Shown: positions 16,836 to 36,156, numbered from the stretch's first letter. The stretch: DNA of 64,000 nt from Candidatus Woesearchaeota archaeon (GCA_016928155.1 JAFGLG010000002.1:80412-144411); one strand, 5' to 3'. Numbers and translations: made by a program. The notes: generated from the sequence alone by a model not told the origin.

Positions 16836-17569
16836 TGGGCATAATCTTCATGGATGCAAAGTGGGACAAGGAGATCAAGCTAGGGGAAGAAGTGATTGAA
16901 TACCTCGAAGAGTATGCAAACTCAGTGGCGCTGTTCGCTTCAGTGCAGTTCCTGAACCTTGACACTGTGAAGCAGCAGCTGCGCTCCCGGGGGATAGAGA
17001 TAAGGACAACAAAAGCAAAAAGGACAGATGAAGAAGAGCAGATACTAGGATGCGACTGCTACCCTGATTCATTTGCAAAAGGCATAATCCCAGAAGCTGA
17101 TGCAATCCTCTATATAGGGGACGGCATGTTCCACCCCCAGGCGCTACTGCTAGCACAGATGCATACAGATAAGAAAAAAGAGATAATCACATGGAATCCT
17201 GCAGCAGAGAAGATGAGGATAATCAAGCCTCTGGAAGTCAAGAAAAATCTTGCAAAATACAAGGCGAACGTAATGAGATTCATGTCTGCAAAGAACATCG
17301 GCATCATGGTGACGACAAAACCGGGCCAGCAGTTCCTGGAGAAAGCGATAGAGCTCAAGGATGGCATCGCTGCCAAAGGAAAGAAAGCATACATATTCCT
17401 GGATGATTCAGTAAGCCTTAATCAGACAGAGAACTTCAACTTCATAGAGTGCTGGGTCAACACAGCATGTCCCAGGATAGGTCTTGACGACATACTGCAT
17501 CTTGAAAGGCCTATGATAAACATCAAAGAAGCCTTTGAGCCAGAGAAAGCACTGGAGCAGATAAAATGA
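16829..17569 (+). CDS. dph2: Dph2, C-terminal two domains, in a different frame (split gene or frameshift)
   Basis: GCDCY and TACPRIGLDD match the domain 2 and 3 cluster cysteines of Dph2; AAGGAGGAA SD directly upstream of ATG/GTG/ATG at 16829-16837. Confidence 0.7.
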   Translation: MVMGIIFMDAKWDKEIKLGEEVIEYLEEYANSVALFASVQFLNLDTVKQQLRSRGIEIRTTKAKRTDEEEQILGCDCYPDSFAKGIIPEADAILYIGDGMFHPQALLLAQMHTDKKKEIITWNPAAEKMRIIKPLEVKKNLAKYKANVMRFMSAKNIGIMVTTKPGQQFLEKAIELKDGIAAKGKKAYIFLDDSVSLNQTENFNFIECWVNTACPRIGLDDILHLERPMINIKEAFEPEKALEQIK

Positions 17570-18642
17570 ACAGGATGCTTGAATTCATAATATTCTTCAG
17601 CTTCTTCCTGGGGGTCTATGCTGCAATGAACTATTATGCCTATCTAAGGCTTGACATCATACTCGGAAGCAGACCCTGGCTCATGCCATTGATCATATTA
17701 TTGGGGCTGAGCTTCCCATTGCTCAGCGTGACCGAGCGGTTCATGCATCATAATACAGTGAGATATGCTTACATAATGTCCACAATATACCTAGGGGTAT
17801 TGTTCTTCATGATAGTGGCATTCGCATTATTGGATCTTGCCCATCTGGGTTCACTCATAGCAAAATCAAGCTTCAACTACCAACTAATCGGCCTGATAGC
17901 CCTGATAATAGTGATACTGGTGTCAGGATATTCAATGTTCAATGCCACACAGCTGAACATCAAGAAAATAAGCGTGCCAGGGGATGATGAGCTGAAGATA
18001 GTGCAGCTATCAGACATACATGTCGGCACAATACACACATCAAGATACCTGAAGAAGATTGTCAGAATCTCGAATGAACAAGAACCTGATATTGTGGCAA
18101 TAACAGGAGACCTGTTCGACGGAAGCGACGGAGTCAATAAGGAACTGATAATGCCCCTGAAAGACCTGAAGGCACGCCTTGGAGTGTACTTTGTGACTGG
18201 AAACCATGAGACCTACCTTGAGACAGACAAGATAGTGGAAATGGTGAGATCACTGAATGTGACAGTACTCAGGAATGAGATGACAGAAGCCGGCGGGGTG
18301 CAGATCATAGGGATAGACAACCCTACAAATGACCTCAAGAACAACATCCATCATCTCAAGAATATGGATATAGACAAGAAAAAGACCACAATACTGCTAT
18401 ATCATACGCCGATAGGGGTGAAAGAGGCATCAGAAGCAGGAGTTGACCTGATGCTCTCCGGCCACACGCACAATGGCCAGATATGGCCATTCGACATCAT
18501 GGTGAGGCTGTTCTTCAGATATGTGAAAGGCCTGTATGAGGTCGGGGACATGCACCTCTATCTCTCTCCGGGGGCAGGGACTTGGGGACCGCCGATGAGA
18601 CTTGGATCAAGATCAGAGATATCCGTCATAGAGATGAAATAG
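17566..18642 (+). CDS. membrane-bound calcineurin-like metallophosphoesterase
   Basis: 4 N-terminal TM helices, then the MPE motifs SDIHVG, GDLFDG, GNHE, GHTHNG. Confidence 0.8.
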   Translation: MNRMLEFIIFFSFFLGVYAAMNYYAYLRLDIILGSRPWLMPLIILLGLSFPLLSVTERFMHHNTVRYAYIMSTIYLGVLFFMIVAFALLDLAHLGSLIAKSSFNYQLIGLIALIIVILVSGYSMFNATQLNIKKISVPGDDELKIVQLSDIHVGTIHTSRYLKKIVRISNEQEPDIVAITGDLFDGSDGVNKELIMPLKDLKARLGVYFVTGNHETYLETDKIVEMVRSLNVTVLRNEMTEAGGVQIIGIDNPTNDLKNNIHHLKNMDIDKKKTTILLYHTPIGVKEASEAGVDLMLSGHTHNGQIWPFDIMVRLFFRYVKGLYEVGDMHLYLSPGAGTWGPPMRLGSRSEISVIEMK

Positions 18643-23383: not shown

Positions 23384-26020
23384 TTACTTCTTCTTGCCTG
23401 GCTTCTCATCCTCAGGTGTCTTCAGGGACAGATAACCGACAACAGCTATGACAAGCACACCAAGGACCACAAGCAATGCAGTGATCTTCCTGGAAGCTGA
23501 GTCATCGATCTCCTCGACAACCTGAACATCCTCGACCTGAGGCTCTGGTTCAGCTACGGGCTCTGGAGCCGGAGCAGGGGCTTTCTTCCCTGCAATGGCG
23601 AACTCTGAGAGACCAGGAGCATCAGCCCAGAACATAGTGTAATCTGAGTTGCTTCCCTGAGATTGGGTCTCGAGCTCTGTCCAAGAGTCTGTATACCTAT
23701 AAAGCCTTATGTCCTCAGCCTTGAAGCCATTCTGCTGCATCCAGGCATTGTCCACCCTGAACCTGAACCTTGCTCCCTGTACGGCGGAGTCATCAAGATT
23801 CTCGTGCTCAACAATAAGATACCTGTAGACATTGCCTAATTCTGAGGCTTTCAATGGCTTGGCAGGAACACCTACAACCATATCAACCCTCTGGCTGGCC
23901 TTCTGGACCGAGACCTCGAGCTGAGTGACAGGAATGTCTGCCTTGTCGATGCTCATAGTAAGGAGGGACGGCGCACTGACCTCAGGATAATAGTGCTTTG
24001 CATTCGGATAGGTTGGCAGGAAATCTGTCTTAGGCCCTGTCCATCCTCCCTTCATGACCAAAGGAGATCCCCCTTTCATGACCAAAGGCGAACTGCCGCC
24101 TGATGAACATTTCTTGTCAGCACCATTGCAGTCCTCGTCAATGCCATTCCCGCAGATCTCATTCTGAGGCATCACGGCATCGCAGTCATTGTTCCATGCG
24201 CCTGCTGTGCAGGTCTGAGTGCCGAGAGTGCAGATGCCTATGTTGCCGACTCCGCAGTCCCTTGTGGCTGTTGATCCTACCGAGGCATTATCATCGTCGC
24301 AATCTGAAGCCAATACCAGACCATCCTGATCAAGGTCATCGTCCAATGTCGCAGGATTGCAGTCATCATCCAAACCATTGTATGGAGTCTCTGACTTCCC
24401 TGGATTTATGTTCGGATTGTCATCGTTGCAGTCAATGAGCACAGGCTCGCAGAATCCTGGAACAAATTGGTCATAACCATCACTGTCCCTATCGCATTCT
24501 GTATCCGATGTTGCAGGATTGCAGTCATCGTCAATGCCGTTGAAAGGGATCTCTGCTGCTCCTGGATTTACATCCGGATCTGTGTCATCGCAATCATAGA
24601 CGCTCAGACCAGAGCATGCAGCTTCAGGGACATAATTATCGCCATCAGCATCAAAGCCCTCATCAGTCTGGCCGTCGCAATCATTGTCCTTGCCGTCGCA
24701 GACGGACTCATCAGCCTGATAATCAACGCTGTGGGCTGCATAAGTGGCCTGTGTGCAGGCATCCCACTCACCATCTGTGCAAACATCCTTGACAGATCCT
24801 GCGCAGACACCGACCTGGTTGTCGCAAAGAGGAGCGACATCGCAGGAATTCACGACAGTGAACTGGACTGGATCGCTTGTTGTCTTGTATATGGATTGGG
24901 CTGAATCAGCAATCTCAACCCTGTACGAAACAACATCCTGAGGCAGGAACTTGCCGATATTTGCTGTGAAGTCAAACATGCTCTTTGTCATTGCCACAAC
25001 CTGCTGTGCACCGCCATTTACTGTGTACTTGACCACGCCAGACAGGGTGTCATGATAGCCGAAAGCAGATGCTCCGACAATCACATCATCATTATGGCCT
25101 GGCTCCAGAGGTGTGTGGGAAACTGAATTTATTATGGGCTTGAAGTGGCCATAAGCAAAGAATGCAGATACAGTCTTTGACTCAGAGCTTCCTGTCACAG
25201 TGGCCTGAAGCCTGAATTTACCTGCAGGCGTATCAGGTGTATCCTTCACCCAAATAGTTGCAGTGCAGTCAGGCTGGACAAGACCATTGATCTCCCAGCC
25301 TGTCCCTCTGGTAACTTCAGCACCGCTCGGATTGAAAAGCTTCAGTGCACAGGAAACCAAACCACCCTCATCTTCCCTAGCATCGCTTGCAATATTTATA
25401 TTCTGGGCAGGATCTGAACATGCAGGACCTGGCCAGCAAGTAGCTGGATCCACAGAATAATCATTCAATGTAAGCTGTGTGAAAAAAAGACCTGCCGGCG
25501 GATCATCACTGTCAGGAGTAGAAGGATCGCAATCATCATCCTTGCCGTTACCCATTATCTCGGTCTCACCCGGATTGACATCCGGATCATTGTCATTGCA
25601 GTCATCGCCACCATAAGCGACTGCATCATATCCGTCGCTGTCAGCATCAGTTATCTGGCCTGTGTTGATGGTGAAAGTGACGCTGTCACATGCATCTGGG
25701 TACTGGTCAAGAGTGCAGTAATTGGTGCCGCCTGATGAAGCCATCCAGACATTAACTGTGTGCTGACCATCAGCAAATGTCCCGGGAAAAACATATGTCT
25801 CAGTCAAACCATCAGCAAATGGTGTGGCTAGAAATACAGACGGATTACCATCCATCTGCACATACACCCGCGGAACATTGAAATCTCCTGTAAACTGGAT
25901 TGTGACAGTATCGATATCAAGAACCTCTCCCTGAGCAGGTGAGTCTATCGTGATGACAGCACCCAAGGCTGAGAAGCTCATGATTAACAATACACACAAA
26001 AACAATGCTAGTTTCCTCAT
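23384..26020 (-). CDS. giant secreted surface protein with many Asp/Cys-rich MopE-like putative metal-binding repeats and a C-terminal TM anchor
   Basis: Signal peptide; repeated DxDGDGxxxxDCDDxDPxxNPGAxExPxNGxDDDCN modules (at least 6); Pro/Glu-rich linker, TM helix, KKK tail; internal tandem 27-nt duplication encoding GGSPLVMKGG x2. Confidence 0.8.
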   Translation of the reverse strand: MRKLALFLCVLLIMSFSALGAVITIDSPAQGEVLDIDTVTIQFTGDFNVPRVYVQMDGNPSVFLATPFADGLTETYVFPGTFADGQHTVNVWMASSGGTNYCTLDQYPDACDSVTFTINTGQITDADSDGYDAVAYGGDDCNDNDPDVNPGETEIMGNGKDDDCDPSTPDSDDPPAGLFFTQLTLNDYSVDPATCWPGPACSDPAQNINIASDAREDEGGLVSCALKLFNPSGAEVTRGTGWEINGLVQPDCTATIWVKDTPDTPAGKFRLQATVTGSSESKTVSAFFAYGHFKPIINSVSHTPLEPGHNDDVIVGASAFGYHDTLSGVVKYTVNGGAQQVVAMTKSMFDFTANIGKFLPQDVVSYRVEIADSAQSIYKTTSDPVQFTVVNSCDVAPLCDNQVGVCAGSVKDVCTDGEWDACTQATYAAHSVDYQADESVCDGKDNDCDGQTDEGFDADGDNYVPEAACSGLSVYDCDDTDPDVNPGAAEIPFNGIDDDCNPATSDTECDRDSDGYDQFVPGFCEPVLIDCNDDNPNINPGKSETPYNGLDDDCNPATLDDDLDQDGLVLASDCDDDNASVGSTATRDCGVGNIGICTLGTQTCTAGAWNNDCDAVMPQNEICGNGIDEDCNGADKKCSSGGSSPLVMKGGSPLVMKGGWTGPKTDFLPTYPNAKHYYPEVSAPSLLTMSIDKADIPVTQLEVSVQKASQRVDMVVGVPAKPLKASELGNVYRYLIVEHENLDDSAVQGARFRFRVDNAWMQQNGFKAEDIRLYRYTDSWTELETQSQGSNSDYTMFWADAPGLSEFAIAGKKAPAPAPEPVAEPEPQVEDVQVVEEIDDSASRKITALLVVLGVLVIAVVGYLSLKTPEDEKPGKKK
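24045..24097. repeat. 27-nt tandem duplication inside the CDS (encodes GGSPLVMKGG-SPLVMKGG)
   Basis: CCCTTCATGACCAAAGGAGATCC / CCCTTTCATGACCAAAGGCGAAC read directly. Confidence 0.6.
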
Positions 26021-26320: not shown

Positions 26321-26530
26321 ATGAAAATTGAGAAAGTCATCAAAGAAATCCAACAGATACTTGCAAAAGATACCAGAGGATTGACAATCCAAGAACTTTC
26401 TGAGATAACCAAAGTGTCAAGGATAACAACATCCATGGCACTGATGAAGCTAGAAGGGGCAGAAACCATAGTTGTCCGCCCAGTCGGAAACTGCAAACTC
26501 CACTATCTAAAGGAGAAATACCCGAAATGA
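26321..26530 (+). CDS. small winged-helix DNA-binding protein (69 aa)
   Basis: LTIQELSEITKVSRITTSMALMKLEGAETIVVRP; 4-nt overlap with the next giant gene. Confidence 0.6.
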   Translation: MKIEKVIKEIQQILAKDTRGLTIQELSEITKVSRITTSMALMKLEGAETIVVRPVGNCKLHYLKEKYPK

Positions 26531-29500
26531 GCAGAAAAAAAATCATGGAAATTGCATTATTTATTATAATAATACACTTAATAATATATTCATCTGCAGC
26601 ATTGCACCCTAATGATTACTGGACAGAATCAAACAATGGCATTGTGAGCTGGAATGTGAGAAGCATAGCAGTTGACCATCAGAATTCTTCAATAATATAT
26701 GCATTGACACAGGCCAATGGAGTATATAAATCAGTGGATGGAGGAGAGACATGGAACCCAAAAACAAATGGGATCCCCGCTGATCCGAGCGTCACATGGG
26801 GCCACCTGTTCGGCAACCAGCTGACAATGGATCCGAGCAACAGCTCGATATTATACACGAACTTCGGAGGCATGCCTTTCAGGACAGCAGATGGAGGAGA
26901 GAGCTGGCAGAACATCACAGAAGGGATAGACACATGCCTGCCGCAGCATGCAATAGCTGGTGTTGCAGTGGATCCACAGAACAGCAGCCACATATTCGCA
27001 GCATTCACAGTATCAAGCTGTCCGGGGGGGATATATGAATCAGATGACAGCGGTGCGACATGGACACATATCGCGTCATATTCTGGATCAGGGGACCTCA
27101 ACAATGATGCATGGGCATTGACTGTTGATCCTACAAACAGCTCAAGATTATACAGCGCACCGCAATACCTGGGATTCCTGTACTCGACCGATGGAGGGCA
27201 TCACTGGACAAGGAATTCTCCAACAGGAGCAACATTGATACCTGGAATGGAAGTCGAGGTGCATCCAGAGAATACAAGCAGAATAATTTTGGGACAGGAC
27301 ACAGGCCTCTATGTATCACAAGATCATGGCATCAGCTGGACAGATAAGACTGATGTCATGGGCGGAGCAGTCTATGACATCGACTTTGCACCATCAGACC
27401 CCAGCATAGGATATGCAGTCGGTATGGGTGGAATAGCAAAATCAACAGATGGAGGTCTCAGCTGGTCAAAGATGAATGATGATGAAAGCCTTTCACTGAG
27501 AAGCGTCGCAATCGATCCAGATGACCCAGAAAGGATATACCTCGCTGACCTTGGAAAGGGAGTATTCATGTCGACAAATTCAGGAGAAGACATCGAGCAG
27601 AAGAATTCCGGGCTGCCAATCTCACGCGATATAAGAGCAACAGCGATAGCGCCTAGCGACCCGACAATATATTACATATCTGTGATCGGGAATGGATTCT
27701 ACAGGAGTGAGGACAAAGGGGAGAGCTGGACACTCATGAGCGTGCATGGAGATGTGATAAACACAATCGACATAGAAGTTGACAACAATGACCCAGAAAT
27801 CGTATTTGCAGGAATCACTAACATATACAAATCGACTGACGGTGGCATCACATGGAATGAAACACTTGAATCTGGAGATGATACAATAACAGACATTCAA
27901 ATGGACCCAAATGACAATTCCATCATATTTGCCACGAGCTCAAGATGGCCCTCTTCATCCTTGATATATAAATCAGAAGACAATGGGGATACATGGGGGA
28001 CAAAAACCGGATTCAGCCTTGTAACAAGAAGCGTTACACCGATAGTCATAGATGAGAGCAACAGCTCAAGGATATATGTAGGGACATACAATGGTCTCCG
28101 CAGAAGCATGGATGGGGGAGAGACATGGAGCCTGATAACCAACGGACTAACAGGCTATGGAACATGGATAGATGGAATTGGGATATACCCTGAAAATCCA
28201 AGCAGGCTATACCTCACTGCAAGAGACCATAACCTCCATTATTCAGATGATTATGGAAGCAGCTGGGCCACAAAAACCAATACTGCATCCTACCCCGGCA
28301 GGATAATAATCGATTGGCATAACCCTGATGATTTCTATGTCTTCACGCTCTATTCCTGGATGAAGTTCCTTGCAAATGCATCATCAAAAATATATATGCC
28401 CACAACAGGAATCAAAGGTGATGCCAAACGCTTCAGGGAATCTGCACTGCAAGACCCATTGAACCCGAACAGATTCATAAGCGGAGACTTCAACCAGGGA
28501 TTCATGGTATACAATAGGTATGAAGACAGAAAAGTCTCATATATGCTCCCAAAAAGGGTGATCCAGAACCATACACTCTATATCTCAGGGACAGTTGAGG
28601 ACAAACTGGATGGTGATGTGGACCTGATGGTCAATGACAGCGGGACAATCCTGCTCAACAAAACTGTTCCTGCTGAAAACGGTCACTTCGAATATCAATT
28701 CCTTGTCAATGCCAGTATCCCTATAGGGCAGAAGAAAATAACGTTCTATTTCCACAATCTCAGCGCAGGAGCCGACGGGTATAATGAGGCATATTTCACA
28801 GTGGATGATCTCAACATCCCCACCAATCACATGCCGCAGACATCTGGCTTCAACATGAGCTATGACTATACCTTAGACTGGGTGCGAGCAGGAGATTTCA
28901 ATTATTATGATGAAGACGATGATGAAGAAACTGGCTCCATAAAGGATATCTACATAAACAATGCGTTCCTGAAATCAGAGAGCTCCAGCCAGACTGCACT
29001 CATCCACTTTGATGGGAGCCCGAATACAACAGAAAACGACCCTTATGACTACAATGTGGATGGAGAATTTGATTATGCAACAGGAAAATTCGGACAGGCC
29101 ATCCATTTCGGAAACTACAGCTGGGTCAACTATGACTCCAGAGATGTCATGGATCTCCATCAAGGAACCATCGAGTTCTGGGTGAATACAGACTGGGATT
29201 GGGACAACCTGACAGAAGATGTATGGTTCATATGGTTCTCAGGATACTACGGGGACTATATCTATCTCCTGTGCAATGCAACAACAGACACCTTGGACTA
29301 TATCCTATATTCCAACAGCACAAAAAGTAACATCAGCATAGACACGTCAGACTGGACCAAAGACGAATGGCACCATATCGCAATCACATATAACCTATCC
29401 GGCAGCCATGAAAATAATTCCATGGAGATATTTGCAGACGAGAGATACAGTTCAGAATCAGGCATATACCCTATCAGGACAATAGGATTATATGACGCGA

Positions 29501-30471
29501 TCGGATTCGGCCATCATCACTATTCAATGGATGAACTCAGGATATCAGATGCAGTGCTTGATCCCACAGTAATAAACTACAGCAGGCACAGGGACACAAC
29601 ATTCTATGATGATGAGATTCTCGTCGACAATAGTCATTATGGTGGATTGGACAACATCACGCTCAAATACTGCCCTTATGATGGAACGATGTATGGGGAA
29701 TGCTTGAACAGGACTGTGCTTATCAACCAGCCGCCGATTGCGGAAAGCATACTCCTGAATCCCGAAACTGTTCTGCCAGATGGGACACTGACCTGCTATG
29801 GGGCTGCATCTGATCCTGAAGGACAGCCAATGACATATTATTACCAATTCTACATCAATTCAATCGGACAAGGATGGAGCCTTAGCAGTCAATTCGACTG
29901 CGATGGTGTATGCAACGAGCTCGATGATATATACTGCGAATTCTACGCGAATGACAACGAGTGGAACACATCCATACTGCAGAGCAATAATGCCACAGTG
30001 GTCAGTGACTCAGATGGAGACACCGGCGGAGACACCGGCGGAGGCTCTCCGCTCGCGCTCAAGGGAGGAGGGGGCGGAGCGTATTATGCCGCCGAAGCTG
30101 CAACAAACGAGACCTGCACTGAAGACTGGAGCTGTGGAGAATGGAGCGAATGCATGGAGGGTATCAGAATCAGGGAATGCTTTGATACAAATGACTGCAA
30201 GACAAGTGTTAATATCCCGGCGACACAAACTGCATGCGAAGGAGAACCTCCTATATTCATAGAAAAGGCAAAAGGGACAACAGAAGAATTTGAGACAATA
30301 ATGGGACTGAAAGAGATAAATTACCACAACCTTATAATGTGGACAGCATCAATGGCAACAAGCGCCCTGATAATAATATTCATAATACTGGCACATGCAA
30401 GACCGCCGAAGAACAAAATCGATGAGATAAAGAAAGAGATGGAAGAATTTGGAATAAAATCAGCCAAATAA
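26527..30471 (+). CDS. giant surface protein: at least 11 BNR/Asp-box repeats (beta-propeller), a LamG/concanavalin-like domain, a Cys-rich module and a C-terminal TM anchor
   Basis: Repeated S-x-D-x-G-x-T/S-W (SVDGGETW, TADGGESW, SDDSGATW, STDGGHHW, SQDHGISW, STDGGLSW, SEDKGESW, STDGGITW, SEDNGDTW, SMDGGETW, SDDYGSSW); signal peptide; hydrophobic helix then basic tail at the C-terminus. Confidence 0.85.
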   Translation: MSRKKIMEIALFIIIIHLIIYSSAALHPNDYWTESNNGIVSWNVRSIAVDHQNSSIIYALTQANGVYKSVDGGETWNPKTNGIPADPSVTWGHLFGNQLTMDPSNSSILYTNFGGMPFRTADGGESWQNITEGIDTCLPQHAIAGVAVDPQNSSHIFAAFTVSSCPGGIYESDDSGATWTHIASYSGSGDLNNDAWALTVDPTNSSRLYSAPQYLGFLYSTDGGHHWTRNSPTGATLIPGMEVEVHPENTSRIILGQDTGLYVSQDHGISWTDKTDVMGGAVYDIDFAPSDPSIGYAVGMGGIAKSTDGGLSWSKMNDDESLSLRSVAIDPDDPERIYLADLGKGVFMSTNSGEDIEQKNSGLPISRDIRATAIAPSDPTIYYISVIGNGFYRSEDKGESWTLMSVHGDVINTIDIEVDNNDPEIVFAGITNIYKSTDGGITWNETLESGDDTITDIQMDPNDNSIIFATSSRWPSSSLIYKSEDNGDTWGTKTGFSLVTRSVTPIVIDESNSSRIYVGTYNGLRRSMDGGETWSLITNGLTGYGTWIDGIGIYPENPSRLYLTARDHNLHYSDDYGSSWATKTNTASYPGRIIIDWHNPDDFYVFTLYSWMKFLANASSKIYMPTTGIKGDAKRFRESALQDPLNPNRFISGDFNQGFMVYNRYEDRKVSYMLPKRVIQNHTLYISGTVEDKLDGDVDLMVNDSGTILLNKTVPAENGHFEYQFLVNASIPIGQKKITFYFHNLSAGADGYNEAYFTVDDLNIPTNHMPQTSGFNMSYDYTLDWVRAGDFNYYDEDDDEETGSIKDIYINNAFLKSESSSQTALIHFDGSPNTTENDPYDYNVDGEFDYATGKFGQAIHFGNYSWVNYDSRDVMDLHQGTIEFWVNTDWDWDNLTEDVWFIWFSGYYGDYIYLLCNATTDTLDYILYSNSTKSNISIDTSDWTKDEWHHIAITYNLSGSHENNSMEIFADERYSSESGIYPIRTIGLYDAIGFGHHHYSMDELRISDAVLDPTVINYSRHRDTTFYDDEILVDNSHYGGLDNITLKYCPYDGTMYGECLNRTVLINQPPIAESILLNPETVLPDGTLTCYGAASDPEGQPMTYYYQFYINSIGQGWSLSSQFDCDGVCNELDDIYCEFYANDNEWNTSILQSNNATVVSDSDGDTGGDTGGGSPLALKGGGGGAYYAAEAATNETCTEDWSCGEWSECMEGIRIRECFDTNDCKTSVNIPATQTACEGEPPIFIEKAKGTTEEFETIMGLKEINYHNLIMWTASMATSALIIIFIILAHARPPKNKIDEIKKEMEEFGIKSAK

Positions 30472-31122
30472 TATCAAGACAAGCGTATAGAAGACAGCAC
30501 CTGCAAGGAACCAAAGCGGCCTGCCATGCCTGCCATGGGGTATAGAATGCCTGATGACAGAGAAAGCTATTATACCGATCACCAGGCCAAGTATTATGGT
30601 CTCAGTCAGAAGAGACATATGATGAACATAAGTCCTGTAAATTATGCCCAGCAAAGTGGATGATGAAAGGATGATCTTGACCCAGACATGCCTCGAGGCC
30701 TCGACAGGCAGGGTATCCAAAGTCGTGTAAAGCAGGACAGGGATGAAGAAAAGGAAAGCCCGGGTGAAACTGAAAAAAGTGAAGCTGGCAATTATGATGC
30801 CAATGGCAAAATGATATATGAAGGATATCACAGAATCCTCAATAGCCAATTCCTTTTTCCTGAGCCTCCTAGGAGCCCTTGTGTAGATATATTTCTCCAC
30901 AAGATGGATCATGATGAAACCTACAAGCAGCGAGAGGAAAAGGAAGCGGTTCTGCACAGAAAGAGCAAAATTAGGGAGGAGCTCAAGGAAAAGATAAGTG
31001 ATCGACACTCCGGCTGAGAAAGAGACAAGATGCACATAATACCTTGTCCTGTTAGCTGAAAAGGTCTGGCCAAAATACAAGGCCAAAGCCATCACGAGTC
31101 CGAAAAATATTGGCTGGATCAT
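30460..31122 (-). CDS. polytopic membrane protein, weakly ZIP-transporter-like
   Basis: About 7 TM helices; HSIPHG resembles the ZIP H-N-x-P-E-G signature; last gene of a 4-gene overlapped operon. Confidence 0.45.
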   Translation of the reverse strand: MIQPIFFGLVMALALYFGQTFSANRTRYYVHLVSFSAGVSITYLFLELLPNFALSVQNRFLFLSLLVGFIMIHLVEKYIYTRAPRRLRKKELAIEDSVISFIYHFAIGIIIASFTFFSFTRAFLFFIPVLLYTTLDTLPVEASRHVWVKIILSSSTLLGIIYRTYVHHMSLLTETIILGLVIGIIAFSVIRHSIPHGRHGRPLWFLAGAVFYTLVLILFG

Positions 31123-32618
31123 AATTTCCTCACAATGCCTTTCACTGCATCCACCTCAACAAGATCCTCATCTTTTAAAACTTTTGTGGCAATCTTGGTG
31201 CCGATAATGCAAGGGACATTCAGTTCTCTTGAAACAATTGCTGCATGGGATGTTACACCTCCAGCATCAGTTATTATCGCAGCCGCCTTCTTCATGGCAG
31301 GCACAACATCAGGATTAGTGGCAGGAGAGACAAGTATATTTCCCTGCTCCATCTTTGACATATCTTCTGGGAAGAAGATGAGCTTGACAATGCCAGTTGC
31401 TATTCCCGGGCAGGCGCACATGCCCTTTATCTCATCAGAATCCGGCATTTCATGCTGCTCAATCTGAATAATATATGCCTTTGCTTGCTTGCCATACTCA
31501 AAACTGTTCTTCCCATTCCTGCTTACCATGACACAGCCCATGTTACGCTTCTCCAACTCCATCTTGTCAACCATCTTGTTATTTAGGAAGAGCTCTCTTC
31601 TCTCTTCGGGAAGCATCCACCTTGACTGATCAAGAGAATAATCATATCTGCGGCAGATCTCCTTATATATCTTATAGATATAATAAAAAGAATGAGTGAA
31701 TCTCTCTTTCCTATATGGTTTTGTATAGAGAAATCCTTGAGCAATCTTGAAAAGCTTCTGATGCTTCTCATCAATAATATATTTCTCTATGCATTCTCTC
31801 TTCTTTTTCTCAACCTGTTCATCTTTTTTCCTAATCTCTGCCAAAAACTGTTCAGGCTTCTGGGAACTTGAGGCCAATGTGAGCAGCTTCTCATAAAAAT
31901 ATTCCATACCCCATAATGCACCGAGGAAATCATGAGGTATCCAGTGATATTCCGCATGATGTGCCTCAAGAAGCTTGAATTCTTCAGGGAAACTCTCCTT
32001 GAAATGCCCGATCTTTGGGTTATCCTTCAGGAATTTTGTTGATTCTGGTGAAAATATCTTCTTGCACATCTCTAGGAAAGCAATCTCCTCTTCTGCAACA
32101 ACAGTCTTTCCTTCGGGTGTGCAAAGTACAGAGAAGACCTCGCCTGCGTTATCACCTGCAACGCTCTTAAGATAGTCAAGCAGATAATTGGAGAAAAAAG
32201 GCTCCCAAGCATCAAGAATCATAGGGATATTCCCTGAAATGAACATCTCGATACCAAGCTGGTAAAACTCATTGAAACATCGCCAGAGCTCTTCTCCTGA
32301 AGCCTTCTCAACATCCAAATCCTTTAGGTTCTTCTCTGTTGTTGCAAAGATATTGTCTGCGTGCTTCATTATGTCTTTGATCACCCGCATACCATAATCT
32401 GGATCATCAATGAGTCTCTTTAGAATATCCTTAGCTGCCTTCTCCAGTTCATCCTTCAAATAACATACCTGGCCGGTCTGCAGGTCCTTGAAATTGACTA
32501 GAGTTTCAGAGAAATTCTTGCCTAAGCTCTTTGTGATATGCTCTGTGTTGCACTCACCATACATCATGACAACATCCGGGACCATATTTATCTCATCGAA
32601 CATAACAACAAAAGTCAT
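31119..32618 (-). CDS. protein with a C-terminal PEP-utilizer phosphohistidine swivel domain; about 370-aa N-terminal region of unknown function
   Basis: C-terminal GMCACPGIATGIV...ILVSPATNPDVVPAMKKAAAIITDAGGVTSHAAIVSRELNVPCIIG (catalytic His in TSHAAI); no ATP-grasp (VRSS) or PEP-binding TIM motifs seen. Confidence 0.75.
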   Translation of the reverse strand: MTFVVMFDEINMVPDVVMMYGECNTEHITKSLGKNFSETLVNFKDLQTGQVCYLKDELEKAAKDILKRLIDDPDYGMRVIKDIMKHADNIFATTEKNLKDLDVEKASGEELWRCFNEFYQLGIEMFISGNIPMILDAWEPFFSNYLLDYLKSVAGDNAGEVFSVLCTPEGKTVVAEEEIAFLEMCKKIFSPESTKFLKDNPKIGHFKESFPEEFKLLEAHHAEYHWIPHDFLGALWGMEYFYEKLLTLASSSQKPEQFLAEIRKKDEQVEKKKRECIEKYIIDEKHQKLFKIAQGFLYTKPYRKERFTHSFYYIYKIYKEICRRYDYSLDQSRWMLPEERRELFLNNKMVDKMELEKRNMGCVMVSRNGKNSFEYGKQAKAYIIQIEQHEMPDSDEIKGMCACPGIATGIVKLIFFPEDMSKMEQGNILVSPATNPDVVPAMKKAAAIITDAGGVTSHAAIVSRELNVPCIIGTKIATKVLKDEDLVEVDAVKGIVRKL

Positions 32619-33697
32619 CTTATCTTCCTCACAATACCCTCATCAGCATCCACTTCAACCTCATCACCATCATTCAGGACCTTGGTGGCTACTTTTGTGC
32701 CTACAATGCATGGGATGCCGAGCTCTCTTGCCACTATGGCAGCATGGGAGGTGAGGCCACCTTCATCTGTTACAATGGCACCAGCCTTCTCAATAGCAAG
32801 CATCATCTCGGGGCCTGTAGTCTCAGCAACCAAAACATCACCATCCATCACTTTTTTGATCTCCTCCTTGAAATTATCACTGAAAACTGTCCTTACTACT
32901 TTGACAATCCCAGAATAAATACCCTTATTTGCTATTGTGCCTGGAATCTCGTCCAAATTCTCACTGAAGAAATAATTTTCAAACTTATCCATCAAATCCT
33001 TCACTTCTCTGCCTTGTATAATATTCCAGTCATTATGTCTTGAGAGCATCCAATAAGTCTTGTCCCTGTCTGATAGAGGAATCTCTTTGTTATCCAGAAT
33101 GTCTACTATCTCCTGGAAACTGAGCCACTGGAGATCAGATCTTTCCTTTCTTTTCTGGATCTCATCAATATACTTCTTCCACATGATATTGTGATTATAG
33201 AACTTATTCAGGAGCTTCCTTGCTTCAAGCTTCAACCCACCCATCCTGTTCAGATTATGCGCAAGACCGCTCTTTGGATCCTCTTTAGCAATCATCTCCA
33301 CCTTTTCCAGGAAAAAGAACTCAGTATAGAAATAATTTCCACCTAAATCCTGAAACAGACCTGCTCTTGCTCCAATCCTTTGCTTCAACTCATCATCATT
33401 CAGCTTTGCCACATCATCTTTCTCTGTCTCTTTGACAAGCTCTTCTCCTTTTCTGATGCTATTCTTGATGTCCTTCTCCCAATCTGCAATATCTGAATAG
33501 AAATCAACAGCAGAAGCTGAGAATCTCTTAATATCTTTCTTTGAGAGATAGAACCTGAGCCCCTTATCCTTGTGATCATAGAAGAAAACCATGTCTGATT
33601 CTCGGATCTCCTTGAAAAGATAGCAAGAAGTGAAGATGAAATTCACATCATGGTCTGTCCAAAGATAGGTGTAATCCTGCGGGTTTGGGACTTTCAT
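32615..33697 (-). CDS. paralogous protein with a C-terminal PEP-utilizer phosphohistidine swivel domain; about 230-aa unknown N-terminal region
   Basis: GTIANKGIYSGIV...VLVAETTGPEMMLAIEKAGAIVTDEGGLTSHAAIVARELGIPCIVG; ATGA overlaps with both neighbours. Confidence 0.75.
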   Translation of the reverse strand: MKVPNPQDYTYLWTDHDVNFIFTSCYLFKEIRESDMVFFYDHKDKGLRFYLSKKDIKRFSASAVDFYSDIADWEKDIKNSIRKGEELVKETEKDDVAKLNDDELKQRIGARAGLFQDLGGNYFYTEFFFLEKVEMIAKEDPKSGLAHNLNRMGGLKLEARKLLNKFYNHNIMWKKYIDEIQKRKERSDLQWLSFQEIVDILDNKEIPLSDRDKTYWMLSRHNDWNIIQGREVKDLMDKFENYFFSENLDEIPGTIANKGIYSGIVKVVRTVFSDNFKEEIKKVMDGDVLVAETTGPEMMLAIEKAGAIVTDEGGLTSHAAIVARELGIPCIVGTKVATKVLNDGDEVEVDADEGIVRKIR

Positions 33698-34293
33698 TTT
33701 ATTCTAATTAGCTTACCTTTCGGGCCTGGATTGATTATTGTTGTCTTCTTTATCCTATCCTGCTTGCCTGCATTCTCATGGATGTGGCCGCAGATGACAA
33801 GATTGAGGTCGACTTCCTCGATGAAATCCCTCAAGGTCCTGTTGCCTACACAATCCCCATTCAGAACATCAAGCGTTGTCTGGAAAGGCGGGGGATGGAT
33901 GATGAAGACTTTCTTAAGATTCCTGTGCTCATCCATGAGGATCTTGAATGCCTTTGCAGTCTTCCTCAATCCAGGCTCATCCATGACAAACCCATTTCCT
34001 GCAAAACCCATGAAAAGATGATCCTTCACTATTATAGCATGCTTGTGCAGATAGATTATCTTATCAAATCCCTTGCAGGCGATCTTCAAAGACCTCGGGC
34101 TCTCATGATTGCCAGGGATTATGAGGACTTTCTTCTTCAGCCTGCTGAGCCTGCGAAGCCACTGCTCCAAGTCCTGCTCAAAAATAGTGAGATCACCGGC
34201 ACAGATGATGATATCTGCCTTCGGCGCCTTCTTTGCCAGGGAGGCCCAGGCAGTCTCGCTGCCATGCAAATCAGTGAATGCGAGGATGTTCAT
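33694..34293 (-). CDS. calcineurin-like metallophosphoesterase (YfcE/MJ0936-like)
   Basis: FTDLHG, GDLT, GNHE, GHIH motifs. Confidence 0.85.
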   Translation of the reverse strand: MNILAFTDLHGSETAWASLAKKAPKADIIICAGDLTIFEQDLEQWLRRLSRLKKKVLIIPGNHESPRSLKIACKGFDKIIYLHKHAIIVKDHLFMGFAGNGFVMDEPGLRKTAKAFKILMDEHRNLKKVFIIHPPPFQTTLDVLNGDCVGNRTLRDFIEEVDLNLVICGHIHENAGKQDRIKKTTIINPGPKGKLIRIK

Positions 34294-34334
34294 CTTATAT
34301 CCCGGTTCTCATTCTGTTTATATAATTATTGTGC

Positions 34335-35303
34335 CTAAAAAGGCAAATATCTTATCTTAACAGTCTCATAAAACATGAAAGTCCTGTAATCGCCTATCAT
34401 CTCAGGGAACTTAAGCCTGAGATCGCTCACAAAATCAAAAAGCTCCTGGTTGTTCTTGACCATGATCTCAACATCAAGGTCTTCAGGAAGGCCAACACCC
34501 TTGACTATGTAAAGGATTATAGGATTCATCTTGATATACTGATAAATCCTGTTCATCTTCTCCTTTGAGATGTTGTTGAGATTGATCCAGAGTTTGTAAT
34601 AAGTATAACCCAGCTTATTATGATCAAGATCGGGCCTGTAGCCTTCAATGAGCTTGTTCTTCTCCATGCCCCTTATCCTGTTAGCGATGGTTTTTGGAGA
34701 TAGATCAATCCTTCTTGACATATCAGTCAGGGACATCCTTGCATCTTCACAAAGAAGAGAGAGAATCCTCTTGTCATCATCATCAATCTCAATCCTTTCG
34801 GGGGTCTCCTGGATATGAATCTCCTTTGTCCTGGATTCCTTAAGGAGCCAGCGATGCTGGAAATGCACAACATCAGTTGTGATAGATTCATTCTTGTATT
34901 TTATGTAAGCGCTGAATCTTGAGAAGATGTCAAGCACAGCCTCTTTATATTCAGTGATGCTCTTAGCCCACATCACAAACAACAGATCATAGACTCCTTG
35001 CGTCGTGAAGACCCAGAACCATCTTGGGTCATGCTTGATGTAATCAAGAATCTCCTGCTCTTTCTCTGGGGTAATGTTGCTCAATGTGAGCGAGAGGCGA
35101 CAATAGATGTAGCCAAGCTTGGGGACATTGATGATCGGAACAAAACCCTTAATGACACCGAGCCTCATAAGACGATTCATCTTATATTTGGTGCCTTGCT
35201 TGCTGAGACCAATCCTCTTTGCCAACCGTGAAAGCGGAGCTCTCGCATCAAAATCCAGCAGGTGGATGAGCTTCCGGTCCTTCAGATCCAGCTTGATAGT
35301 CAT
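34335..35303 (-). CDS. tandem-duplicated Lrp/AsnC-family transcriptional regulator (two HTH+RAM units fused)
   Basis: Two repeats of DxxDRKILxLLxxDARxSLxxLAxxIGLSxxxxxxRIxxLExxGVIxGY followed by ligand-binding-domain-like segments. Confidence 0.8.
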   Translation of the reverse strand: MTIKLDLKDRKLIHLLDFDARAPLSRLAKRIGLSKQGTKYKMNRLMRLGVIKGFVPIINVPKLGYIYCRLSLTLSNITPEKEQEILDYIKHDPRWFWVFTTQGVYDLLFVMWAKSITEYKEAVLDIFSRFSAYIKYKNESITTDVVHFQHRWLLKESRTKEIHIQETPERIEIDDDDKRILSLLCEDARMSLTDMSRRIDLSPKTIANRIRGMEKNKLIEGYRPDLDHNKLGYTYYKLWINLNNISKEKMNRIYQYIKMNPIILYIVKGVGLPEDLDVEIMVKNNQELFDFVSDLRLKFPEMIGDYRTFMFYETVKIRYLPF

Positions 35304-35415: not shown

Positions 35416-36156
35416 ATGGACAATATATTAGCAAGCATGTGGGAAGAGTTTGTAGGAAAAAGGAGCGAGATGGAGAAAGAGTTCTATCGCTCAATCCTGT
35501 GTGCGCATGACTGCAACAGAATTTTTGACGCGGCAACAGGGACAGGAGATGATTCGATAGACCTGATCCTAGCGGGATTTGATGTGACAAGCAATGAGAT
35601 AAATGAAGACCTAAGAATAAAATCACATAAGAAAGCAGGGGAATCTGGAGTGGAACTGGTATTCACATCATATGACTGGAGAAAACTACCAGGTGACATG
35701 ATACATCAATATGATGGCATGATCTGCCTGGGTAACTCACTGACGATACTGCGACATCCAGGTGAGCAAGCAAAAGCATTGAGGAAAATGAGAAGGAGCC
35801 TGAGAGATGGTGGGGTGCTGATAGTTGATCAGAGAAATTATGATTATATATTGGATTCAAGAGAAGATATCATAAACAATGGGTTGAGATTCAAATATGA
35901 GATAAGATATTGCGGCAAGACAATCAGGGCAAGGCCATGCAGTATCCGCGATAATCTTGTTGTGATGGAATATGTGGACAACAAAGCAAGACAAGGACCT
36001 GCATTCCCACCAATCCTGAAGATGTACCCATTCAGGTTCCATGAACTCAGAGCACAGATAATAAATTCCGGGTTCAGGGATGTGACAAGCTACAGCGACC
36101 TAGAACTTGGATACAATAGAGATGCTGACTTCCATCAGCATGTATGTGTTAAATAA
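35416..36156 (+). CDS. glycine/sarcosine N-methyltransferase family SAM-dependent methyltransferase (GNMT-like)
   Basis: IFDAATGTGDDSIDL (motif I), ICLGNSL, and IVDQRNYDYIL nearly identical to the GNMT VIDHRNYDYIL. Confidence 0.8.
   Translation: MDNILASMWEEFVGKRSEMEKEFYRSILCAHDCNRIFDAATGTGDDSIDLILAGFDVTSNEINEDLRIKSHKKAGESGVELVFTSYDWRKLPGDMIHQYDGMICLGNSLTILRHPGEQAKALRKMRRSLRDGGVLIVDQRNYDYILDSREDIINNGLRFKYEIRYCGKTIRARPCSIRDNLVVMEYVDNKARQGPAFPPILKMYPFRFHELRAQIINSGFRDVTSYSDLELGYNRDADFHQHVCVK

What the first reader, a model, noticed from the sequence alone, without database searches (positions are those of the whole stretch)
30460..34293. Four-gene ATGA-overlapped operon: metallophosphoesterase, two paralogous orphan phosphohistidine-swivel proteins, and a membrane protein
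Four minus-strand genes are chained by 4-nt start/stop overlaps (33694-33697, 32615-32618, 31119-31122), which argues for obligate co-expression. The two central proteins (360 and 499 aa) share only a C-terminal PEP-utilizer mobile His domain (…GGxTSHAAIVxRELxxPCIxG). This is the phospho-carrier module of PEP synthase, PPDK, enzyme I and rifampin phosphotransferase. I could not find the ATP-grasp (VRSSA) or PEP-binding TIM-barrel motifs that normally accompany it. Their N-terminal regions (about 230 and 370 aa) are unrelated to each other and to anything I recognise. Two swivel-His carriers, a calcineurin-type phosphoesterase and a weakly ZIP-like membrane protein could together form a phosphotransfer system. 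A phosphorylation-based small-molecule-inactivation system (RPH-like) is another possibility. This is the best candidate for an undescribed system in the window.
Basis: partly seen in the sequence, partly recalled or inferred. Interest (0 to 1): 0.7.

Follow-up and report, generated by a model that had tools for sequence, protein, structure and literature searches.

The report
Split RPH-like dikinase subunits, ATP-grasp missing
Two adjacent genes in a Woesearchaeota genome encode the substrate-binding plus phosphohistidine-carrier halves of a split, rifampin-phosphotransferase-like dikinase; this family is greatly expanded in small-celled CPR bacteria and DPANN archaea, and here it sits in one operon with a phosphatase and a ZIP-like metal transporter, with no ATP-binding partner anywhere in the 64 kb.

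Summary
The four minus-strand genes and their three ATGA overlaps are real. The proteins are a metallophosphoesterase (199 aa), SwvA (360 aa), SwvB (499 aa) and a roughly 6-TM protein whose family is ZIP-related.

In 70 related CPR/DPANN loci these genes form tandem arrays of up to 9 diverged paralogues. The commonest neighbour is a stand-alone PEPS-type ATP-grasp of about 314 aa (19 loci). In 9 more loci the ATP-grasp is fused N-terminally to 1-4 units. Phosphatases of several folds also recur beside the arrays.

The window has no ATP-grasp in 64 kb. The MPE-Swv-ZIP frame recurs in only one related contig.

Verdict: this is a new variant of a known enzyme class, not a categorically new system. 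The expansion of the family in CPR and DPANN was not found in the literature I could search. The substrate is unknown.

The parts
34318..34325 (-). TATA-box-like TTATATAA, 25-32 nt upstream of the MPE start codon, in the 41-nt spacer after the Lrp-type regulator gene. It is a candidate archaeal promoter for the four-gene operon.
   Evidence: Read directly from the sequence. This is inference only. No archaeal promoter tool was available.
33694..34293 (-). Calcineurin-type metallophosphoesterase, 199 aa, YfcE-like. All metal-binding and catalytic motifs are present (DxH, GD, GNHE, H, GHxH). Its stop codon overlaps the SwvA start codon (ATGA).
   Evidence: PF00149 E 1.6e-17 and PF12850 E 3.4e-13. 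TIGR00040 YfcE scores below its cutoff. Motifs read from the translation. A 53%-identical orthologue sits in the same position in L091. No homologue occurs in the 89 other related loci then held (before L090-L095 were fetched).
32615..33697 (-). SwvA, 360 aa: the short substrate-binding/swivel ('H-type') dikinase subunit. It has a reduced RIF-binding-like N-domain that lacks about 90-140 residues present in SwvB, and a C-terminal phosphohistidine swivel domain.
32636..32845 (-). PEP-utilizer mobile (swivel) domain of SwvA, residues 285-354. The phospho-carrier His318 codon is at 32744-32746.
   Evidence: PF00391 E 2e-27. GGLTSHAAIVA. H318 is invariant in 62 homologues.
31119..32618 (-). SwvB, 499 aa: the full-size substrate-binding/swivel ('H-type') dikinase subunit. 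It has a RIF-binding-domain-like N-domain (about residues 1-390) and a C-terminal phosphohistidine swivel domain.
31137..31349 (-). PEP-utilizer mobile (swivel) domain of SwvB, residues 424-494. The phospho-carrier His458 codon is at 31245-31247.
   Evidence: PF00391 E 7e-25. GGVTSHAAIVS. H458 is invariant in 72 homologues.
30460..31122 (-). Short ZIP-related membrane protein, 220 aa, with about 6-7 hydrophobic segments. It is the last gene of the operon and its start codon overlaps the SwvB stop codon (ATGA).
   Evidence: No Pfam family reaches its cutoff for this sequence itself. The family has 353 representative clusters. 25 of 66 homologues match PF02535 Zip, best E 3.8e-10. The family profile hits BbZIP 5tsa and 8j1m at E 0.001-0.002. 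Hydropathy. A 61%-identical orthologue sits in the same position in L091.
34335..35303 (-). Tandem Lrp/AsnC-type HTH regulator, 322 aa, immediately upstream on the same strand. It is a possible regulator of the operon and is listed as context, not as a proven part.
   Evidence: Two PF13404/PF13412 stretches. LrpA-like in NCBIfam, below cutoff. No homologue occurs next to arrays in other loci.

Best explanation
SwvA and SwvB are two paralogous substrate-binding/phosphohistidine-swivel ('H-type') subunits of a split small-molecule dikinase of the RPH / PpsAB / CreHI / HpeHI kind.

Established mechanism in that class: an ATP-grasp module transfers the beta-phosphate of ATP to the swivel histidine, releasing AMP and Pi. 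The swivel domain then moves to the helical substrate-binding domain and phosphorylates a bound small molecule.

Shown here:
- Both proteins keep the invariant carrier His.
- SwvB has the RIF-binding-domain-like fold, with a conserved basic residue at the position of RPH's catalytic Arg666.
- Relatives in CPR and DPANN carry a stand-alone or N-terminally fused PEPS-type ATP-grasp in the same gene cluster.
- Paralogues within one array keep the swivel domain (about 51-57% identity) but have diverged strongly in the binding domain (about 15-21% identity).

Inferred:
- In this Woesearchaeote the ATP-grasp is encoded elsewhere in the genome and charges both subunits in trans.
- SwvA and SwvB act on two different, still unknown, small molecules or on two positions of one molecule.
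- The translationally coupled metallophosphoesterase removes a phosphate from the product, from a by-product or from the phospho-enzyme.
- The ZIP-like transporter supplies the divalent metal (Mn2+ or Zn2+) that the phosphoesterase, and probably the dikinase, need.
For: - Domain content: PF00391 is the only Pfam hit in either swivel protein.
- Sequence: the family profile aligns to RPH 452-866. K300 and R303 are conserved, and K300 aligns to RPH R666. PMC4844700 shows that R666/E667 are critical for the second phosphotransfer.
- Published precedent (PMC12167813): HpeH is a RIF-BD-like domain plus swivel, HpeI is the ATP-grasp, both are required, and the carrier His is essential.
- Neighbourhoods: 70 non-redundant family loci. 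18 have a stand-alone PPDK_N of about 314 aa (PF01326 E 2e-86), and L090 adds a nineteenth. 9 have the ATP-grasp fused N-terminally to 1-4 H units. 25 of the 49 loci of 12 kb or more have an ATP-grasp.
- L038 (828 aa) reproduces the RPH domain order.
- L090, which holds the SwvA homologue of 58% identity, has an ATP-grasp inside the array.
- Fusions of two units occur.
- Paralogue divergence pattern.
- Phosphatases of different folds lie next to arrays: HAD in 9 loci and fused in P0110, LMWPc-like in 4-5 loci, a weak PP2C-like match in L006, and MPE in the window and L091.
- The MPE-Swv-ZIP frame is conserved in L091.
- Mn2+ stimulates HpeHI.
Against: - There is no ATP-grasp anywhere in the 64-kb window. 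I could not establish whether this MAG has one elsewhere.
- About half of the related loci also lack an ATP-grasp within the fetched 16 kb.
- RPH's Glu667 is not conserved in the family. The alignment is at 16% identity, so residue equivalences are approximate.
- The swivel domains are more like those of PEP synthase (TSH motif, E 4e-47 to 8a8e) than those of RPH or HpeH.
- The substrate is unknown.
- A kinase and a phosphatase in one operon could form a futile cycle unless they act on different groups.
- Outside L091, the MPE and ZIP-like genes are not found next to family members.
- The next ZIP-like homologue, at 44% identity, lies in an unrelated context.
Confidence: 0.6

Rival explanations
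1. ATP-grasp-independent phosphotransfer. SwvA and SwvB never see ATP. They take a phosphoryl group from a phosphorylated donor metabolite onto the swivel His and pass it to another acceptor (transphosphorylation). The metallophosphoesterase gives the reaction direction or resets the phospho-enzyme.
For: No ATP-grasp lies within 30 kb on either side. About half of the related loci lack one locally. HpeH alone catalyses phosphotransfer from 4-phosphoacetophenone to acetovanillone (PMC12167813). Phosphatases of several unrelated folds recur next to the arrays.
Against: The ATP-grasp is by far the commonest neighbour and is repeatedly fused to these units. The swivel domain stays at about 51-57% identity among paralogues, as expected if all must dock on a common charging module. 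The locus holding the SwvA homologue of 58% identity has an ATP-grasp. Absence from 64 kb of a MAG says little about the rest of the genome.
Confidence: 0.2
2. A split PEP synthase or PPDK of central carbon metabolism, with pyruvate/PEP interconversion distributed over several polypeptides.
For: The best sequence matches of the swivel domain are archaeal PEP synthases (8a8e, E 4e-47 with the family profile). NCBIfam partial hits to PEP_synth. The ATP-grasps associated with relatives are PEPS-like.
Against: No PEP/pyruvate-binding TIM-barrel domain (PF02896) occurs in the proteins, the window or any neighbourhood. All full-length PEPS models score far below their cutoffs. The N-domains have the RPH RIF-binding fold. 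Genuine 750-800-aa PEP synthases exist separately in these lineages. Up to 9 diverged paralogues per locus is not what one central enzyme would need.
Confidence: 0.03
3. A genuine rifamycin-inactivating phosphotransferase, or another antibiotic-resistance kinase.
For: RPH is the closest solved structure. RPH belongs to a wide superfamily, some members of which act on antibiotics (PMC4844700).
Against: Identity to RPH is only 16-20%. NCBIfam RPH models match only the swivel domain and score far below cutoff (45-52 bits against 999). The ATP-grasp is absent. From general knowledge, archaeal RNA polymerase is not a rifamycin target, so rifamycin resistance would have no obvious value to a Woesearchaeote. 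Conservation of the RIF-contacting residues was not tested.
Confidence: 0.05
4. Non-catalytic or regulatory swivel proteins, like the extra C-terminal PEP-utilizer domain of Geobacillus pyruvate kinase, or a component of an anti-phage defence island.
Against: The carrier His and the GGxTSH loop are invariant across 62-72 diverse homologues. Neither swivel protein matches any PADLOC model. The PDC-S10 match is a generic metallophosphoesterase match. The association with ATP-grasps argues for catalysis.
Confidence: 0.05

Closest known systems
Two-component small-molecule dikinases: HpeHI (Rhodococcus), CreHI (Corynebacterium), phenylphosphate synthase PpsAB (Thauera, Aromatoleum)
   Same: The enzyme is split into an ATP-grasp subunit and a subunit that combines a RIF-binding-domain-like substrate domain with a C-terminal His swivel domain (PMC12167813). 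SwvB has exactly that subunit architecture. Relatives encode the separate ATP-grasp of about 300 aa next to it.
   Different: SwvB (499 aa) and SwvA (360 aa) are much smaller than HpeH (71 kDa). No sequence-level match to PpsA-like models extends beyond the swivel domain (PRK08296 hits cover only the C-terminal 105 aa). The swivel loop is PEPS-like (TSH). Relatives have one ATP-grasp per array of up to 9 diverged H subunits instead of a 1:1 pair. The hosts are CPR and DPANN organisms, not aromatic-compound degraders. In the window the ATP-grasp is absent, and a phosphoesterase and a ZIP-like transporter are coupled instead.
Rifampin phosphotransferase RPH (Listeria RPH-Lm; PDB 5fbs, 5hv1)
   Same: It is the only solved structure that aligns beyond the swivel domain: RIF-binding-like domain plus His swivel, in the same order, with a basic residue at the R666 position. 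Some relatives (L038, 828 aa) have the full RPH order of ATP-grasp, binding domain and swivel in one chain.
   Different: There is no ATP-grasp in SwvA or SwvB. Identity is 16-20%. Glu667 is not conserved. SwvA lacks part of the binding domain. Rifamycin is an implausible substrate in an archaeon.
PEP synthase / pyruvate phosphate dikinase / PTS enzyme I
   Same: They share a homologous phosphohistidine swivel domain with the GGxTSHAAI loop, and archaeal PEPS gives the highest sequence similarity. The partner ATP-grasps in relatives are PEPS-like.
   Different: SwvA and SwvB have no PEP/pyruvate-binding TIM barrel and no HPr-binding domain. Their swivel is C-terminal rather than central, and their second substrate domain has a different fold.
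Starch dikinases GWD/PWD with phosphoglucan phosphatases SEX4/LSF2 (an analogy from general knowledge, not tested here)
   Same: Paralogous His-swivel dikinases work together with dedicated phosphatases in a cycle of phosphorylation and dephosphorylation.
   Different: GWD and PWD are single-chain enzymes with carbohydrate-binding modules. No CBM or glucan-related domain was seen here. This is only a functional analogy for why a kinase and a phosphatase might be co-encoded.

Membership tests
Two-component small-molecule dikinase, substrate-binding/swivel component (HpeH / CreH / PpsA type) | C-terminal phosphohistidine swivel domain with a conserved T/SxxGGxxxH loop and a catalytic His | tested here: met
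   PF00391 E 2e-27 and 7e-25. TDEGGLTSH318 and TDAGGVTSH458. The His is invariant in 62 and 72 homologues.
Two-component small-molecule dikinase, substrate-binding/swivel component (HpeH / CreH / PpsA type) | N-terminal substrate-binding domain homologous to the RIF-binding domain of RPH | tested here: met
Two-component small-molecule dikinase, substrate-binding/swivel component (HpeH / CreH / PpsA type) | A separate ATP-grasp (PPDK_N) partner subunit encoded with it | tested here: not met
   Not met in this window: no PF01326 among window proteins of 250 aa or more, and no hit in a six-frame HMM search of the 64 kb. Met in relatives: 19 loci with a stand-alone ATP-grasp and 9 with a fused one, out of 70. 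The rest of this genome could not be examined.
Two-component small-molecule dikinase, substrate-binding/swivel component (HpeH / CreH / PpsA type) | ATP-dependent phosphorylation of a small molecule via His~P (dikinase stoichiometry: AMP + Pi) | not testable with these tools
   This needs biochemistry.
Rifampin phosphotransferase (RPH, NF041857) | Single chain with ATP-grasp, RIF-binding domain and swivel; score above the family cutoff | tested here: not met
   There is no ATP-grasp. NF041857 scores are 45.7-51.9 bits against a cutoff of 999, and the hits cover only the last ~105 residues, i.e. the swivel domain and its linker.
Rifampin phosphotransferase (RPH, NF041857) | Catalytic Arg666-Glu667 (and Lys670) in the binding domain | tested here: inconclusive
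   In the HMM alignment K300 aligns to R666 and K304 to K670, while E667 aligns to a non-conserved position. At 16% identity the alignment register is uncertain.
PEP synthase / PPDK (TIGR01418, TIGR01828) | N-terminal ATP-grasp, central swivel and C-terminal PEP/pyruvate-binding TIM barrel (PF02896) | tested here: not met
   Only the swivel domain matches. Scores are 107-119 bits against cutoffs of 740-843. There is no PF01326 or PF02896 hit.
Calcineurin-like metallophosphoesterase (PF00149) | Pfam score above cutoff and the DxH / GD / GNHE / H / GHxH metal-binding motifs | tested here: met
   65 bits against a cutoff of 21.5. The motifs D8xH10, G32D33, G61NHE64, H133 and G168HxH171 are read from the translation.
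ZIP metal transporter (PF02535) | Pfam Zip match above cutoff; 8-TM ZIP core with a binuclear metal centre | tested here: inconclusive
   The window protein itself has no Zip hit. 25 of 66 homologues do, with best E 3.8e-10. The family profile matches only the C-terminal ~65 residues of BbZIP, at E 0.001-0.002. The protein has 220 aa and about 6-7 hydrophobic segments, which is shorter than canonical ZIPs.

The most novel reading that the evidence does not exclude
CPR bacteria and DPANN archaea carry a previously undescribed modular phosphorylation platform. One PEPS-type ATP-grasp charges many diversified carrier subunits (RIF-binding-like domain plus swivel), arranged as tandem arrays of up to 9 genes or as 2000-aa polypeptides with four units. 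These subunits would phosphorylate a repertoire of host-derived or environmental small molecules, working with dedicated phosphatases. The window operon would be an offshoot in which two such subunits are wired to a metallophosphoesterase and a ZIP-like metal importer and work without a locally encoded ATP-grasp.
Probability: 0.35. Interest if true: 0.7.

Novelty: new variant of a known kind. Interest (0 to 1): 0.5.

Why it matters
CPR and DPANN organisms have genomes of about 1 Mb and very limited metabolism. Even so, many of them devote 10-16 kb to arrays of these carrier subunits, so the family is probably important to their host-dependent lifestyle. Possible roles are scavenging, detoxifying or modifying small molecules.

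Recognising these 'PEP-utilizing enzyme' and 'hypothetical' genes as substrate-binding subunits of split RPH/HpeHI-type dikinases has three practical consequences:
- It gives a concrete and testable biochemical mechanism.
- It stops them being mis-annotated as PEP synthase, which distorts reconstructions of gluconeogenesis in these lineages.
- It extends the recently defined two-component dikinase subfamily from aromatic-compound catabolism to a much larger and more diverse group with a one-to-many subunit arrangement.

For the window itself, the coupling to a phosphoesterase and a metal transporter is a small variant that recurs once. Its substrate remains unknown.

Tried and rejected
- Looking up the window's own proteins (P0121, P0001) in the contig index to see the rest of the MAG: not on record.
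- Looking for the MAG's ATP-grasp by searching with the L090 ATP-grasp and reading cluster names: no JW968-tagged hit was visible, and most NCBI entries carry no name, so the result is inconclusive.
- Relating the window membrane protein to the DUF5656 protein after SwvB in the Moranbacteria locus, or to the 257-aa protein in L006: no credible similarity.
- Relating the divergent window methyltransferase (35416-36156) to the methyltransferases inside arrays (L001, L090): only the generic SAM motif is shared.
- Testing whether the unknown 310-340-aa family found in arrays is a swivel-less copy of the binding domain: hhalign probability 0.2%, and no PDB or Pfam hit.
- L095 377-aa protein upstream of the SwvB homologue of 54% identity: MPE-like motifs by eye, but only a sub-threshold Metallophos hit (E 0.089) and no similarity to the window MPE. 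Treated as a hint only.
- PADLOC: only a generic MPE hit.
- AFDB fold search: the library was unavailable.
- Literature searches for CPR/DPANN together with PEP-utilizing, dikinase or swivel terms found no description of these arrays.

Caveats on my neighbourhood statistics:
- ORFs were called crudely (longest ATG ORFs of 70 aa or more).
- Loci were chosen by swivel-motif patterns from the SwvA alignment, and only the best 80 of at least 594 matches were kept.
- Taxon names come from the record titles. Several TPA_asm records labelled 'Gammaproteobacteria' or 'Methanosarcinales' look mislabelled.

Full report
**1. The observation**

- The four minus-strand ORFs exist exactly as described: 33694-34293 (199 aa), 32615-33697 (360 aa, here SwvA), 31119-32618 (499 aa, here SwvB) and 30460-31122 (220 aa).
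- Each junction is an ATGA start/stop overlap.
- Such overlaps are common in this compact genome. Six of 39 same-strand neighbouring gene pairs in the window have one, three of them outside this operon. The chain therefore argues for co-transcription and translational coupling but is not remarkable in itself.
- A TATA-like TTATATAA lies 25-32 nt upstream of the first gene, in the 41-nt spacer after a tandem Lrp/AsnC regulator gene. Its role as a promoter is inferred.
- The source is a Candidatus Woesearchaeota MAG (JW968_00790 and JW968_00795, contig of 199 kb).

**2. Domain content**

- Protein 1 is a calcineurin-type metallophosphoesterase (PF00149, E 1.6e-17) with all metal-binding motifs intact.
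- SwvA and SwvB each carry only PF00391, the PEP-utilizer mobile domain, at the C-terminus. Their loops are GGLTSH318 and GGVTSH458.
- Every full-length NCBIfam model (PEP synthase, PPDK, RPH, PigC, PRK08296, enzyme I) matches only the C-terminal ~100 residues (swivel domain and its linker) and scores far below its cutoff.
- No ATP-grasp (PF01326) or PEP-binding barrel (PF02896) occurs in these proteins or in any of the 19 other window proteins of 250 aa or more.
- A six-frame HMM search with an ATP-grasp profile built from relatives finds nothing in the whole 64 kb.

**3. The N-terminal regions**

Both statements are wrong.

- BLASTP aligns the two proteins at 41% identity over about 190 residues, well beyond the 72-aa swivel domain.
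- Profile-profile comparison of the two families aligns SwvB 242-510 with SwvA 141-383 (probability 100%).
- The N-terminal sub-alignments also match: SwvB 10-153 against SwvA 2-140, probability 92%, E 5e-7.
- SwvA is therefore a shortened paralogue that lacks roughly SwvB residues 154-240.
- AlphaFold2 models built from 72 and 62 homologues are confident (pLDDT 94.9 and 94.6).
- At sequence level, SwvB-family profile positions 100-503 align to RPH residues 452-866, E about 3e-26.
- In RPH-Lm the ATP-grasp is residues 1-314, the RIF-binding domain 327-754 and the swivel 767-865 (PMC4844700). SwvB therefore corresponds to RPH without its ATP-grasp.
- The family's invariant K300 aligns with RPH R666, and K304 with K670. 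R303 is conserved in at least 90% of the homologues. RPH E667 is not conserved. At 16% identity this residue register is tentative.

**4. What this architecture is known to be**

- PMC12167813 describes a subfamily of two-component small-molecule dikinases: HpeHI, CreHI and phenylphosphate synthase PpsAB.
- One component (HpeI) is the ATP-grasp. The other (HpeH) combines the RIF-binding-like domain with the swivel domain.
- Both components are needed for ATP-dependent phosphorylation, and the swivel His is essential.
- HpeH alone can shuttle phosphate between a phosphorylated product and a substrate.
- SwvA and SwvB have the HpeH-type architecture.

**5. Relatives and neighbourhoods**

- Both proteins have thousands of homologues, almost all annotated only with PF00391. 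They come from DPANN archaea (Woesearchaeota, Nanoarchaeota, Micrarchaeota, Diapherotrites) and from CPR/Patescibacteria.
- I fetched 79 genome loci and several metagenome loci, called ORFs and searched them with my own HMMs.
- Seventy non-redundant loci hold family members, often as tandem same-strand arrays: 36 loci have three or more members, and some have up to 9 in 16 kb (L016, L019, L023, L024).
- The closest SwvB homologue (60% identity) sits in a run of at least seven paralogues (L001).
- Proteins of about 860 aa with two swivel domains are fusions of two units.
- Clustering the non-family neighbours showed that the commonest one is a protein of about 314 aa that is a full-length PPDK_N ATP-grasp (PF01326, E 2e-86).
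- With an HMM of it, 18 loci have a stand-alone copy, and L090 adds a nineteenth. In 9 loci it is fused at the N-terminus of polypeptides carrying 1-4 units, for example L038 (828 aa, the RPH domain order), L057 (687 aa) and L076 (2004 aa). Of the 49 loci of 12 kb or more, 25 have an ATP-grasp.
- The archaeal locus holding the SwvA homologue of 58% identity reads SwvA - methyltransferase - Swv481 - 202-aa LMWPc-like protein - Swv464 - Swv499 - PPDK_N293 - Swv356 (L090).
- Within arrays, paralogues are about 51-57% identical in the swivel domain but only about 15-21% identical in the binding domain. This fits a common charging partner with diversified substrates.

**6. The other two genes**

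- The membrane protein has no Pfam family of its own, but it belongs to a family of 353 representative clusters.
- 25 of 66 members match Pfam Zip (best E 3.8e-10), and the family profile hits BbZIP structures at E 0.001-0.002. 'Weakly ZIP-like' is a fair description.
- In the 89 other loci then held (before L090-L095 were fetched), neither the MPE nor this membrane protein has any homologue (jackhmmer). The four-gene arrangement is therefore not a general feature of the family.
- The closest membrane-protein homologue (61% identity) lies on a 4.2-kb contig, L091. It reads MPE (199 aa, 53% identical) - a B-type swivel protein (487 aa, only 30% identical to SwvB) - ZIP-like protein. So the frame MPE-[swivel unit(s)]-ZIP recurs once, with different swivel content.
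- The next homologue, at 44% identity, is in an unrelated context.
- Phosphatases of several unrelated folds occur beside arrays elsewhere:
  - HAD in 9 loci, 5 of them adjacent on the same strand, and fused to a unit in P0110.
  - LMWPc or LMWPc-like in 4-5 loci.
  - A weak PP2C-like protein in L006.
- This pattern of non-orthologous phosphatases suggests a real functional link between the carrier subunits and dephosphorylation. Each case is individually infrequent.

**7. Interpretation**

- The best-supported reading is that SwvA and SwvB are two substrate-binding/swivel subunits of a split RPH/HpeHI-like dikinase.
- The steps from ATP-grasp to His~P to small molecule are established for the class. 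They are supported here by fold, by the invariant His, by a conserved basic residue at the second active site, and by the ATP-grasp partnership in relatives.
- Three points are inferred: that this genome supplies the ATP-grasp from another locus; that the MPE acts on a product or on the phospho-enzyme; and that the ZIP-like protein supplies metal. HpeHI is stimulated by Mn2+, and metallophosphoesterases are metal-dependent.
- The main rival is ATP-independent transphosphorylation. It is kept alive by the absence of an ATP-grasp from 64 kb and by HpeH's exchange activity.
- A split PEP synthase is essentially excluded: there is no PEP-binding domain anywhere, and the second domain has the wrong fold.
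- A true rifamycin kinase is unlikely, given 16-20% identity, scores far below cutoff, and an archaeal host whose RNA polymerase is not a rifamycin target (general knowledge).

**8. Novelty and score**

- The enzyme class is known, so this is not a categorically new system and the 'orphan' label does not hold.
- Several things appear new relative to the literature I could search, where four searches found no description:
  - The size of the CPR/DPANN expansion.
  - The organisation of one ATP-grasp with many carrier subunits, including four-unit polypeptides of 2000 aa.
  - The short SwvA form.
  - The recurrent phosphatase partners.
  - In this window, the coupling to an MPE and a ZIP-like transporter without a local ATP-grasp.
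- I rate the finding a new variant of a known kind, with interest 0.5. The window instance itself is modest. The family-level pattern deserves a dedicated study. The substrate remains unknown.

Noticed in passing
L014:10942-11901, L034:6091-7062, L041:3799-4788 and about 10 further loci: An uncharacterised protein family of about 310-340 aa is embedded in the swivel arrays of about 13 CPR loci, in 12 cases adjacent on the same strand. It has no Pfam or PDB sequence match and no similarity to the swivel family. It may be a further subunit or accessory of these dikinase arrays.
   Followed up: partly
L043:5565-11624, L058:6000-11984, L076:29-6043 (also L030, L065, L069, L075): Very large single ORFs of 1000-2019 aa consist of one N-terminal PEPS-type ATP-grasp followed by up to four substrate-binding/swivel units. 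I did not check whether any of them are assembly or frameshift artefacts.
   Followed up: partly
window 31119-32618 (-): The GenBank product for this gene (JW968_00790, P0001) is 423 aa, which is 85% of the ORF. Homologues align from residue 1, the AF2 model is confident from residue 1, and the upstream ATG gives the ATGA overlap. The deposited start codon therefore looks too far downstream.
   Followed up: partly
L086:6001-7774: In a CPR bacterium, a SwvA homologue of 59% identity stands alone, without a B-type partner. It is followed 2 nt later by a P-loop uridine-kinase/phosphoribulokinase-family protein (PF00485), between scpA and scpB. This is a different kinase pairing.
   Followed up: no
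L001:12082-12804, L090:11347-11865, window 35416-36156 (+): SAM-dependent methyltransferases lie inside or beside three swivel clusters. The window's is a glycine/sarcosine N-methyltransferase-like gene, divergent from the Lrp regulator gene. They are not homologous to each other beyond the class I fold, so a functional link is unproven.
   Followed up: partly
L095:5405-6538: A 377-aa protein overlaps the start of a swivel pair that includes the SwvB homologue of 54% identity. By eye it shows metallophosphoesterase-like motifs (HGD, GNSE, MHG, YGHDG), but it has only a sub-threshold Pfam Metallophos hit (E 0.089).
   Followed up: partly
window 17566-18642 (+): There is a second calcineurin-like metallophosphoesterase in the window (358 aa, PF00149 E 6.8e-15). 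It is joined by an ATGA overlap to the preceding 246-aa ORF, in a cluster with radical-SAM and wyosine-formation genes.
   Followed up: no
window 26527-30471 (+): A 1314-aa ORF with a hydrophobic N-terminus and a C-terminal hydrophobic segment converges on the operon and overlaps the end of the ZIP-like gene by 12 nt. It looks like a large surface protein. It was not analysed.
   Followed up: no
window 23384-26020 (-), 55551-58103 (-), 58091-63091 (-): Several very large predicted extracellular proteins are present: MopE-type metal-binding repeats with CBM_56, and NosD/beta-helix repeat proteins of 850 and 1666 aa. Proteins of this size stand out in a genome this compact.
   Followed up: no
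L015, L018, L024, L039, L040, L048, L051 and others (record titles): Many TPA_asm MAG records that carry these CPR/DPANN-type arrays are titled 'uncultured Gammaproteobacteria', 'Methanosarcinales' or 'Bdellovibrionales'. These taxon labels look unreliable.
   Followed up: no
L090:861-1973 and L090:18974-21011: The archaeal array locus is flanked by a reverse-transcriptase gene (RVT_1) and by small DUF3368/UPF0175 and nucleotidyltransferase/HEPN gene pairs, which are toxin-antitoxin-like. This suggests a mobile or variable genomic region.
   Followed up: no
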